64,000 nucleotides of DNA from Escherichia coli (lineage in GTDB: Bacteria; Pseudomonadota; Gammaproteobacteria; Enterobacterales; Enterobacteriaceae). The stretch lies in assembly GCF_030013205.1 (NCBI RefSeq), contig NZ_CP122648.1. One strand, written 5' to 3'. The stretch's first letter is position 1, and each line of letters starts with the position of its first letter. Positions 47,301-50,300 of the stretch are shown one piece after another. The position numbers were made by a program.

Positions 47301-50300
47301 TATCGATTTTTGCACGCCTTGCGTAAAGCGGCACGGCGCGGAGTGCGGATCAAACTGATCATTCAGGGCGAACCGGATATGCCGATTGTCAGAGTCGGCG
47401 CGCGTTTGCTGTATAACTATCTGGTTAAAGGTGGCGTTCAGGTGTTTGAGTACCGCCGCCGCCCGCTCCACGGCAAAGTGGCATTGATGGACGATCACTG
47501 GGCGACAGTAGGGTCCAGTAATCTCGATCCGCTCAGTTTGTCACTGAATCTCGAAGCAAATGTCATCATCCACGATCGTAATTTTAACCAGACGCTGCGC
47601 GATAATCTGAACGGCATCATCGCCGCAGATTGTCAGCAGGTGGATGAAACCATGCTGCCGAAACGCACCTGGTGGAATCTGGCCAAAAGCGTGCTGGCCT
47701 TCCACTTTTTACGCCACTTCCCGGCGCTGGTCGGCTGGCTTCCGGCACACACACCACGTCTGGCGCAGGTTGACCCGCCCGCTCAGCCGACAATGGAAAC
47801 GCAGGATCGGGTAGAAACTGAAAACACGGGGGTAAAACCCTGATGAGTAAATCACACCCGCGCTGGCGCTTAGCAAAGAAGATCCTCACCTGGCTGTTTT
47901 TTATCGCGGTGATTGTGTTGCTGGTGGTCTACGCCAAAAAGGTGGACTGGGAAGAGGTCTGGAAGGTCATCCGCGACTACAATCGCGTTGCGTTGCTCAG
48001 TGCGGTCGGGCTGGTGGTCGTCAGTTATCTGATTTACGGCTGCTATGATCTGCTCGCCCGCTTTTACTGCGGTCACAAACTGGCGAAGCGCCAGGTGATG
48101 CTGGTGTCGTTTATCTGCTACGCCTTCAACCTGACGCTCAGTACCTGGGTCGGCGGCATTGGTATGCGCTATCGTTTGTACTCCCGGCTAGGGTTACCGG
48201 GCAGCACTATTACGCGGATTTTCTCGCTCAGTATTACCACCAACTGGCTGGGCTATATTTTACTGGCAGGGATTATCTTTACCGCAGGCGTGGTGGAGTT
48301 GCCGGATCACTGGTATGTCGATCAAACCACGCTGCGCATTCTCGGCATTGGCTTACTGATGATTATCGCGGTTTATTTGTGGTTTTGCGCTTTCGCGAAG
48401 CACCGCCATATGACCATCAAAGGACAAAAACTGGTGCTGCCTTCATGGAAATTTGCCCTCGCCCAGATGCTGATTTCCAGCGTTAACTGGATGGTAATGG
48501 GAGCGATTATCTGGCTGTTACTCGGTCAAAGCGTAAACTATTTCTTTGTACTGGGCGTGTTGCTGGTTAGTAGCATTGCTGGCGTCATCGTGCATATTCC
48601 GGCGGGAATTGGTGTGCTGGAAGCGGTATTTATCGCGCTATTGGCTGGGGAGCATACCTCCAAAGGTACAATTATCGCCGCCCTACTCGCTTACCGTGTG
48701 CTGTATTACTTTATCCCACTGCTGCTGGCGCTGATCTGTTACCTGTTGCTGGAAAGCCAGGCGAAGAAACTACGGGCGAAAAATGAAGCGGCGATGTGAA
48801 GTATAGTTAAGTTCTTTAGTATGTGCATTTACGACTAATGAAAAAAACGCGTATGCCTTTGCCAGACAAGCGTTATAGCTATCGCGGCAAGTATCCCAAA
48901 GAAGCCGATAAAATAGTAATAGAGTGTTAATGCACCTGTAACAGCGCAACGAACCGGACTCCACAACTCTTCGCTATGGCATTTTCCTGCCAGTTCAAGG
49001 AGCTTATTTCGTCCATGCGAGATAATGCCTAACCATAACACAATCATTAAGCAACTTATTACCCAAACGGGTCGTTCACTCATTAATGCGGCATTCATGA
49101 TGATCACCAGGGCCAGCCCTGCGGTTGCCACCATACCCAAAGCGGTAATGAGCCATATACCGTTTAATATCCTGGCCTCGTGCTGAAAATCTAATTTATT
49201 GCTGTTTTGCGAGTATGATTCCATTCTTTTAGTTGTCCTTAGAAAAAATATTAATATTCACCATCAATAAATTTAAAACCACGCATACAAAATACTTTTG
49301 TATTTATGGATACGGAAAACACTTCCGCTCGGCCATAAGGCGTATTTTATACCTGGTACTTGTTAAGTGTCGTTTTTAGTAAGAAAAAAATCCCGACACA
49401 TGGCCGGGATATTGATGGTGAAAAAGAATTAACGGCGGTTGCCGAAGATCCGCAGCAACATCAGGAACAGGTTGATGAAGTCCAGATACAAGGTTAACGC
49501 GCCAAGAATGGAATATTTGCGCAGGTTCGACGTGTCGCGGGTATCAATCTGCTCACCCATATTTTTCAATTTCTGAGTGTCATACGCCGTCAATCCGACA
49601 AAGACAATCACGCCGATGTAGGTAACTGCCCACATCAATGCTTCGCTTTTCAGCCAGAAGTTGACCAGCGATGCCAGCACAATGCCGATTAACGCCATAA
49701 ACAGCATATTGCCAAAGCCGCTTAGATCGCGCTTCGTGGTGTAACCGTACAGGCTCATTGCGCCGAACATCCCGGCAGTAACGACGAAAGTACTGGCGAT
49801 AGAAGCTGCGGTATAGACAATGAAAATACTGGAAAGCGTAAGACCCGTCAGCGCCGAATAAAGCATAAAGAGCATCGTCGTTACACCTGCGCTCAGCTTT
49901 TGAATCATCGCTGATAACACAATAACCAATGCTAATTGCGCGATGATCAGACCGATTAAAAAGACACGGTTAGTGAACAACAGCTCCATCACGGCCGCGG
50001 AATTAGCCGCATACCAGGCAACAAATGCGGTCAGCAACAAGCCAACGGTCATCCAGCCATAGACTTGCGCCATATAAGTTTGCAAGCCAGCCCGGGGTTG
50101 TACAATTGAATCAGAACGTGGGAATCTGTCCATGACGATCTCCTGAAGATATAAGGAATATCTTAAGGATACTGCAAAATGATGAGGCTGTGCATCGACG
50201 CAGCGTAAACGCATGTACTGAGCGGTGAAATTGCCGGACGCAGCGGTGCCTTATCCGGCTAACAAAAAACTACCAGCGTTTTGCCGCCTGCTGATCGCTC

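What the first reader, a model, noticed from the sequence alone, without database searches (positions are those of the whole stretch)
48835..49224. Small membrane-protein gene at the ybhM position may differ from the reference gene
Seen in sequence: a 129-aa hydrophobic ORF lies between ybhN and ybhL, preceded by an AT-rich promoter-like region of about 200 bp. From memory the K-12 ybhM product is larger, but I cannot verify this without the reference; the flanking gaps look reference-like, so any difference would be internal to the gene (for example an in-frame deletion or premature stop).
Basis: partly seen in the sequence, partly recalled or inferred. Interest (0 to 1): 0.25.

Follow-up and report, generated by a model that had tools for sequence, protein, structure and literature searches.

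The report
Shortened ybhM membrane-protein gene allele
The small gene at this position is the known E. coli gene ybhM with 324 bases (108 codons) cleanly deleted from its middle. This natural variant occurs in about 8% of sequenced E. coli genomes and is ordinary.

Summary
Window 48835-49224 (- strand) is an intact 129-codon ORF between ybhN and ybhL. The K-12 gene at this position, ybhM, is 714 nt (237 aa). The window copy aligns to it at about 95% identity on both sides of one clean 324-nt (108-codon) in-frame gap. The flanking intergenic gaps (35 and 204 nt) have the reference length.

The deletion lies between two imperfect 11-nt direct repeats, CAGGG[C/T]TGGCC, with the crossover inside TGGCC. 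That is the signature of slippage or microhomology deletion. It fuses the start of helix 1 to the end of helix 5 of a 7-helix Bax-inhibitor-1 (BI-1)/YccA-type protein. Helices 2-4 are lost, and a 3-helix remnant with unchanged orientation remains.

The same junction is in 461 of 5426 complete E. coli genomes, including strains labelled ST69 and ST38 and the window's own pig ETEC/O139:H1 lineage. The exact protein is already in RefSeq and UniRef as a hypothetical or BI-1-family protein.

Most likely it is a tolerated remnant of a dispensable, Escherichia-restricted paralog. Residual function is not excluded, because the ORF was intact in all 10 copies sampled. Interest is low.

The parts
48835..49224 (-). 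Short ybhM allele: 390 nt including the stop codon, 129 aa. It equals K-12 YbhM residues ~1-37 fused in frame to ~146-237.
   Evidence: ORF list. DNA and protein alignments to K-12/DH1 ybhM. RefSeq annotates the identical locus in strain K_EC180 as WP_062876395.1, hypothetical protein. Pfam Bax1-I 34.5 bits, residues 31-114 matching profile positions 129-205 of 207.
49111..49121 (-). Deletion junction: the single hybrid copy CAGGGCTGGCC of an imperfect 11-nt direct repeat. Full-length alleles carry it twice, 324 nt apart. The crossover maps to TGGCC (49111-49115).
   Evidence: Script comparing 7 long alleles with the short ones. The left copy is CAGGGCTGGCC-TGGGG and the right copy is CAGGGTTGGCC-CTGGT. 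The short allele reads CAGGGCTGGCC-CTGGTG, and the best deletion placement is ambiguous over CDS offsets 109-114.
49236..49240 (-). Candidate Shine-Dalgarno sequence AAGGA, 11 nt upstream of the ATG. The K-12 sequence is the same except for one base just downstream of it.
   Evidence: Read directly from the sequence and alignment A1. This is an inference, not a tested site.
49346..49373 (-). ybhM promoter: ACGACA (-35), 16-nt spacer, TATAAA (-10).
   Evidence: The consensus scan finds ACGACA at 49373. PMC3946193 lists ACGACA-16-TATAAA as a constitutive RpoD promoter between ybhL and ybhM, flagged as H-NS-bound. The sequence is conserved between the window and K-12.
49380..49410 (-). Intrinsic terminator of ybhL: stem-loop ATCCCGGCCATGTGTCGGGAT followed by a T-run.
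   Evidence: Terminator scan, 8 pairs of which 5 are G-C, then TTTTTTCTTA. The only Rfam match here is a sub-threshold hit to the hairpin (18.6 vs 42 bits).
49225..49428 (.). 204-nt AT-rich ybhL-ybhM intergenic region, the same length as in K-12.
   Evidence: Composition profile, 0.36-0.39 GC. Annotations of K-12/DH1 and K_EC180.
47843..48799 (+). ybhN, the convergent neighbour. It sets the 35-nt downstream gap.
   Evidence: ORF list. RefSeq annotation of the identical locus.
49429..50133 (-). ybhL, the full-length BI-1/YccA paralog immediately upstream (234 aa).
   Evidence: RefSeq annotation. Pfam Bax1-I 212 bits.

Best explanation
This is a natural deletion allele of ybhM, an Escherichia-restricted, divergent paralog of the Bax-inhibitor-1 (BI-1)/YccA membrane-protein family. 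A 324-nt in-frame deletion arose between two imperfect 11-nt direct repeats. These repeats encode A-G-L-A in helix 1 and T-G-L-A in helix 5. The most likely cause is replication slippage or microhomology-mediated (RecA-independent) deletion. The promoter, ribosome-binding site, start and stop are untouched, so the gene should still be transcribed and translated.

The product is a 129-aa protein with three transmembrane helices. The first is a hybrid of the N-terminal part of helix 1 and the C-terminal 9 residues of helix 5, and it is followed by native helices 6 and 7. Helices 1 and 5 cross the membrane in the same direction, so the remnant keeps the native orientation. It lacks helices 2-4, more than half of the 7-helix fold.

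I infer that it no longer does whatever full-length YbhM does, and that it persists as a tolerated remnant of a dispensable, H-NS-bound accessory gene.

Shown: the deletion, its junction, its in-frame nature, its frequency, and which helices are lost. Inferred: the slippage mechanism, expression of the product, and loss of function.
For: - **Deletion and frame:**
- **Repeats and crossover:**
- **Helix map:** the AlphaFold2 (AF2) model of K-12 YbhM (pLDDT 89, pTM 0.86) has 7 helices: 4-43, 54-76, 79-100, 103-127, 134-154, 159-192 and 198-235. The short form is predicted as 3 helices (7-46, 52-84, 90-127) with low confidence (pLDDT 66, pTM 0.40). Hydropathy agrees.
- **Long form is ancestral:** all distant relatives, YbhL and the solved YetJ align over the full 7-helix length. 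A protein named as E. albertii is 237 aa.
- **Frequency:** the junction is in 461 of 5426 complete genomes.
- **Single origin is favoured:** all 10 sampled short alleles carry L31M, which is absent from the 8 long alleles sampled. An artificial 'long + M31' query has no exact match in the collection.
- **Dispensability and decay at the locus:** IS1 and IS5 insertions in ybhM (PMC5379014). Replacement by unrelated genes. Several other in-frame deletions of 16-42 aa and a frameshift in public sequences.
- **Degeneration in one sub-lineage:** the short allele shared by strain ST38 and CFSAN061768 has G36E and N44D at positions that are invariant or nearly invariant across the family.
- **Promoter:** the promoter sequence is conserved, and the K-12 promoter region is listed as H-NS-bound.
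Against: - The ORF is intact in 10 of 10 sampled genomes. These represent 6 distinct DNA alleles that differ by up to ~0.12 per synonymous site.
- Polymorphism among short alleles is 14 synonymous to 7 nonsynonymous. That is no more relaxed than among long alleles (25:33 over the same codons; Fisher p = 0.08, in the direction of more constraint).
- Variants private to short alleles are 5 synonymous to 5 nonsynonymous, a ratio similar to the long alleles.
- These counts are small. They are also confounded by recombination with long alleles.
- No expression or phenotype data exist for the short form.
Confidence: 0.62

Rival explanations
1. The 129-aa, 3-helix product is still functional and is maintained by selection. 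For example, it might act as a small membrane protein that keeps the helix 6-helix 7 hairpin of the BI-1 fold and works alone or together with YbhL, YccA or FtsH.
For: - The fusion is in frame and preserves orientation.
- The ORF is intact in 10 of 10 sampled genomes from diverged lineages, and the promoter and RBS are unchanged.
- Nonsynonymous to synonymous polymorphism among short alleles is low, 7:14.
- The allele has reached 8.5% of complete genomes.
- Four of the five private amino-acid changes lie in the new hybrid helix (codons 31-44). This could be compensatory tuning.
Against: - Four of the seven helices are gone, and the AF2 model has low confidence.
- Much of the synonymous diversity is shared with long alleles, so it may have been imported by recombination rather than accumulated under selection on the short form.
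- The allele shared by strain ST38 and CFSAN061768 puts Glu and Asp at family-invariant Gly and Asn positions inside the hybrid helix.
- Frequency can be explained by clonal expansion of successful lineages.
- Full-length ybhM itself is disrupted by IS elements or replaced in other strains.
Confidence: 0.3
2. The short form is ancestral, and the 237-aa K-12 form arose by an internal insertion or duplication.
For: None beyond the formal symmetry of an indel.
Against: - The 108 extra residues align residue for residue with helices 1-5 of YbhL, a third local paralog, about 50 distant relatives and the solved YetJ.
- The Pfam profile is covered from position 3 to 205 only by the long form.
- A protein named as E. 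albertii is 237 aa.
- The short allele is the minority, at 8.5%.
Confidence: 0.01
3. The short gene is an assembly or sequencing artefact, a collapse between the two repeats.
For: The deletion is flanked by short repeats.
Against: - An 11-nt imperfect repeat cannot collapse an assembly.
- The identical junction occurs in 461 independently sequenced complete genomes.
- The exact protein is recorded on at least 1000 contigs.
- Seventeen genomes match the window at essentially 100% (at most a few mismatches) over 22 kb.
Confidence: 0.01

Closest known systems
E. coli K-12 ybhM (b0787; RefSeq WP_000446911.1), BI-1/YccA family inner-membrane protein of unknown function
   Same: - Same chromosomal position between ybhN and ybhL, with flanking gaps of the same length.
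- Same promoter, start and stop.
- About 95% identity over the retained 129 codons.
   Different: - Lacks 108 internal codons (K-12 residues ~38-145), so it has 3 predicted helices instead of 7.
- Carries L31M, which is linked to the deletion. The window's allele also has S65L and F95V.
RefSeq 129-aa 'hypothetical protein' / 'Bax inhibitor 1 family protein' entries (WP_062876395.1, WP_000446924.1, WP_000446922.1, WP_001522650.1, WP_001578023.1, WP_000446925.1; UniRef A0A0D8WLV6)
   Same: WP_062876395.1 is the annotated product at a locus that is 100% identical to the window. The others share the same junction and length. The exact window sequence is in public collections on at least 1000 contigs.
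   Different: Nothing for WP_062876395.1. The other alleles differ by 1-5 residues.
Bacillus subtilis YetJ (PDB 4PGR), the solved bacterial BI-1/TMBIM homolog, and E. coli YbhL/YccA
   Same: A profile of YbhM and its relatives matches YetJ over its whole length (E = 1.4e-12). Full-length YbhM is predicted to have the same count of 7 helices.
   Different: - YbhM, long or short, has Gly and Tyr where YbhL and YetJ have the two aspartates of the AYDTQKL and LYLDFINLF motifs. From the literature as I recall it, these form the di-aspartyl pH sensor of the family.
- The short allele also lacks helices 2-4.
- Structure searches with the AF2 model did not return YetJ.

Membership tests
Orthologue (allele) of E. 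coli ybhM | Same syntenic position (moaE-ybhL-[ybhM]-ybhN-clsB) and high identity to K-12 ybhM over the aligned parts | tested here: met
   Annotated regions of DH1, K_EC180 and ST69. About 95% protein identity, with flanking gaps of 35 and 204 nt in both.
Orthologue (allele) of E. coli ybhM | Full length of 237 aa | tested here: not met
   129 aa. There is one 324-nt in-frame gap.
BI-1/YccA (TMBIM) family, Pfam PF01027 Bax1-I | Score at or above the Pfam gathering cutoff | tested here: met
   34.5 bits against a cutoff of 34.1, covering only profile positions 129-205 of 207. K-12 YbhM scores 75.1 bits over positions 3-205. The match is marginal and partial.
BI-1/YccA (TMBIM) family, Pfam PF01027 Bax1-I | Seven transmembrane helices | tested here: not met
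   Three hydrophobic stretches or helices in the 129-aa product. There are seven in the K-12 YbhM model.
BI-1/YccA (TMBIM) family, Pfam PF01027 Bax1-I | Two conserved aspartates in helices 6 and 7 (the di-aspartyl pH sensor of YetJ, from the literature as I recall it) | tested here: not met
   In alignments A3 and A4, YbhM has G (short residue 71, K-12 179) and Y (short 104, K-12 212) where YbhL has the D of AYDTQKL and the D of LYLDF. YetJ shows ILYDLNQIK and LYLDFINLF. This applies to full-length YbhM too.
BI-1/YccA (TMBIM) family, Pfam PF01027 Bax1-I | Sequence-profile similarity to a solved family member (YetJ) | tested here: met
   Profile of alignment A4 against 4pgr_A: E = 1.4e-12, positions 18-231. 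This holds for the YbhM lineage. The short allele retains only the C-terminal part.
BI-1/YccA (TMBIM) family, Pfam PF01027 Bax1-I | Three-dimensional fold similar to YetJ | tested here: inconclusive
   [not shown]
BI-1/YccA (TMBIM) family, Pfam PF01027 Bax1-I | Biochemical activity (cation leak or FtsH interaction) | not testable with these tools
   No experimental data for YbhM in the searchable literature.

The most novel reading that the evidence does not exclude
The 3-helix remnant is not junk. It would be a selected small membrane protein, consisting of a hybrid helix 1/5 plus the helix 6-7 hairpin, that has acquired or kept a role of its own. The changes clustered in the hybrid helix (L31M, A38V, G36E/N44D) would then be adaptive tuning after the deletion.
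Probability: 0.12. Interest if true: 0.3.

Novelty: already known. Interest (0 to 1): 0.1.

Why it matters
It matters little. It is one more lineage-specific in-frame deletion in a poorly characterised accessory gene.

It has three modest uses:

- **Annotation.** RefSeq labels many copies 'hypothetical protein', although they are clearly ybhM with an internal deletion of ~108 codons (K-12 residues ~38-145).
- **Lineage marker.** The junction, together with L31M, marks a set of lineages that includes genomes labelled ST69 and ST38 and the pig ETEC/O139:H1 group.
- **A natural experiment.** The deletion preserves membrane orientation, so anyone who studies YbhM function or BI-1 fold requirements could use it.

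The surrounding ybhL-ybhN interval is a small hot spot of BI-1 paralog gain and loss.

Tried and rejected
- **Direct PDB search.** phmmer of K-12 YbhM against PDB sequences gave only a chance hit (LHCA9, E = 1.1). A family profile was needed to reach YetJ.
- **Selection tests.** Pairwise Nei-Gojobori ratios, segregating-site counts and a Fisher test are underpowered. They rest on 10 short and 8 long alleles and are confounded by recombination, so I treat them as inconclusive.
- **Classifying all genomes from summary counts.** The K-12 324-nt segment is found by megablast in 3685 genomes and the junction in 461. That leaves about 1280 genomes unaccounted for. Some are the three-gene architecture (750 genomes), IS insertions and replacements. 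I could not classify the rest from summary counts.
- **Search for a surviving 'long + M31' progenitor allele.** The test found none. It covers only one haplotype background, so it is one-sided.
- **Rfam scan.** Only a sub-threshold hit to the ybhL terminator hairpin.
- **Literature.** 'ybhM' occurs in 11 papers, none about this polymorphism. 'ybhL' together with 'yccA' gave none.
- **Rejected readings.** Short form ancestral, assembly artefact, and chance ORF are all rejected (see the rival explanations).

Full report
**1. What is in the sequence**

Window 48835..49224 on the - strand is an ATG-to-stop ORF of 129 codons. It lies between ybhN (47843..48799, +) and ybhL (49429..50133, -). The wider gene order is ybhP-clsB-ybhN-[ORF]-ybhL-moaE-moaD-moaC, which is the E. 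coli ybhM neighbourhood.

- The product has three strongly hydrophobic stretches.
- The 204 nt upstream of the ORF fall to 36-39% GC, against 52-58% in the neighbouring genes.
- That stretch holds the ybhL intrinsic terminator (hairpin 49410..49390 plus a T-run).
- It also holds ACGACA-16 nt-TATAAA (49373..49346). This is letter for letter the constitutive sigma-70 promoter listed for ybhM in PMC3946193, where the spacer is also flagged as H-NS-bound.

**2. Comparison with the reference**

In the K-12 derivative DH1 (NZ_CP012126), ybhM is 714 nt (237 aa).

- Alignment of the whole ybhN-ybhL interval shows one gap of exactly 324 nt (108 codons) in the window.
- Everything else is collinear, and the 35-nt and 204-nt flanking gaps are identical in length.
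- The protein is about 95% identical to K-12 YbhM over residues 1-37 and 146-237.

**3. The junction**

Full-length alleles carry an imperfect 11-nt direct repeat 324 nt apart.

- The left copy is CAGGGCTGGCC followed by TGGGG. It covers codons 35-38 (A-G-L-A) in helix 1.
- The right copy is CAGGGTTGGCC followed by CTGGT. It encodes T-G-L-A in helix 5.
- The short allele reads CAGGGCTGGCC followed by CTGGTG. That is the left copy joined to the right flank, so the crossover lies in TGGCC (window 49111-49115).

A deletion between short direct repeats of this kind is the classical signature of replication slippage or microhomology-mediated deletion. This mechanism is an inference.

**4. What is lost from the protein**

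A profile of YbhM and about 50 relatives matches the solved BI-1 homolog YetJ (4PGR) over its full length (E = 1.4e-12). Pfam Bax1-I covers K-12 YbhM across profile positions 3-205 (75 bits).

- An AlphaFold2 (AF2) model of K-12 YbhM is confident (pLDDT 89, pTM 0.86). It shows seven helices: 4-43, 54-76, 79-100, 103-127, 134-154, 159-192 and 198-235.
- The deletion removes the last turn or two of helix 1, all of helices 2-4, and the first 12 residues of helix 5.
- The product is a hybrid helix (ILNGIWLITALGMVATAGLALVIIMNAAL) followed by native helices 6 and 7.
- Helices 1 and 5 are both odd-numbered, so the orientation of helices 6 and 7 should be preserved.
- AF2 predicts the short form as three helices but with low confidence (pLDDT 66, pTM 0.40).
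- The short form scores only marginally on Pfam (34.5 vs 34.1 bits), and over the C-terminal third of the profile.

**5. How common the allele is**

- A 50-nt probe centred on the junction can seed only across the junction. It matches 461 of 5426 complete E. coli genomes, always once and always on the chromosome.
- These include genomes labelled ST69 and ST38.
- The window itself matches 17 genomes at essentially 100% (at most a few mismatches) over 22 kb. These are pig ETEC and O139:H1 genomes, such as K_EC180 and ETEC4068-4079.
- RefSeq annotates the ORF as 'hypothetical protein' or 'Bax inhibitor 1 family protein'.
- The exact 129-aa sequence is in public protein collections on at least 1000 contigs, in a cluster of 452 sequence variants.

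The allele is already known to the databases. I found no paper describing it.

**6. Origin**

The long form is ancestral. The 108 residues align with YbhL, with a third local paralog, with distant relatives and with YetJ. A protein named as E. albertii is also 237 aa.

- All ten short alleles sampled carry L31M, which none of the eight long alleles has.
- An artificial 'long allele + M31' probe has no exact match in the collection. This test is one-sided.
- Together these favour a single deletion event that later spread and recombined.
- One allele (MEI003) has the right-copy T in the repeat and K-12-like residues just downstream. That fits a conversion tract starting at the junction. This is an inference.

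**7. Function of the remnant**

YbhM has no known function. Relatives above 80% identity that carry a source name are all Escherichia or Shigella, and the next full-length relatives are 35% identical or less.

- Even full-length YbhM has Gly and Tyr where YbhL and YetJ have the two aspartates of the family motifs.
- The gene is dispensable in practice. It carries IS1 in strain WCHEC025943 and IS5 in lab strain RR1 (PMC5379014).
- It is replaced by unrelated genes in 17 or more genomes.
- Public sequences contain several other in-frame deletions of 16-42 aa and a frameshift.
- Long alleles show weak constraint, with 25 synonymous to 33 nonsynonymous segregating sites in the retained codons and 21:20 in the deleted part.

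Against simple decay, several observations stand out:

- All ten sampled short ORFs are intact. They comprise six DNA alleles that differ by up to ~0.12 per synonymous site.
- They show 14 synonymous to 7 nonsynonymous sites.
- Private variants are 5:5, no worse than in the long alleles.

These numbers are small and are confounded by recombination. In addition, the allele shared by strain ST38 and CFSAN061768 has G36E and N44D at family-invariant positions in the hybrid helix.

My reading is that this is a tolerated, probably non-functional remnant (about 0.6). Retained or altered function is the main rival (about 0.3).

**8. Verdict**

The finding is real and correctly interpreted, but ordinary. 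It is a common, already-annotated, lineage-specific in-frame deletion allele of a dispensable accessory paralog. Novelty: already known. Interest: 0.1.

Noticed in passing
L020 815-1519 (NZ_CP031902, O104:H4); also L021 809-1513: 750 of 5426 complete E. coli genomes carry a third tandem BI-1-family gene between ybhL and ybhM. It is 705 nt (WP_001299026.1) and about 27% identical to YbhM. The locus therefore varies between three, two and 'one and a half' paralogs.
   Followed up: partly
L006 3104-3695 (NZ_AP045800): In 17 or more genomes ybhM is absent. The ybhN-ybhL interval holds a DUF3969 pseudogene and a 73-aa hypothetical gene instead.
   Followed up: partly
[not shown]
   Followed up: no
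window 48835-49224, residues G71 and Y104; K-12 G179 and Y212: YbhM, long and short, lacks both aspartates that YbhL and YetJ have in the AYDTQKL and LYLDFINLF motifs. It is a degenerate BI-1 paralog even when full length.
   Followed up: partly
L009 and L012 139-528: The short allele shared by strain ST38 and CFSAN061768 has G36E and N44D, two acidic residues at family-invariant Gly and Asn positions inside the hybrid helix. Four of the five amino-acid changes private to short alleles fall in codons 31-44, next to the junction.
   Followed up: partly
P0027, P0031, P0017, P0014, P0066: Other YbhM length variants exist in public E. coli sequences. In-frame deletions of 29, 42, 21 and 16 aa occur at different places, several apparently between short repeated peptide motifs (judged by eye, not tested). 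There is also a frameshifted form.
   Followed up: partly
L020 32-745: The ybhM allele of three-gene strains has a divergent N-terminus (MNSRSANNITN...). Its 3' part is nearly identical to the short alleles and includes V95, so ybhM alleles are mosaic.
   Followed up: no
window 38000-60000: The window matches 17 pig-derived genomes (ETEC, O139:H1) at essentially 100% (at most a few mismatches) over 22 kb. It is only about 98.4% identical to the next group, which identifies its lineage.
   Followed up: partly
[not shown]
   Followed up: no
window 49429-50214: The mechanical ybhL ORF extends to an upstream ATG (261 aa). RefSeq annotates 234 aa starting at 50133.
   Followed up: no
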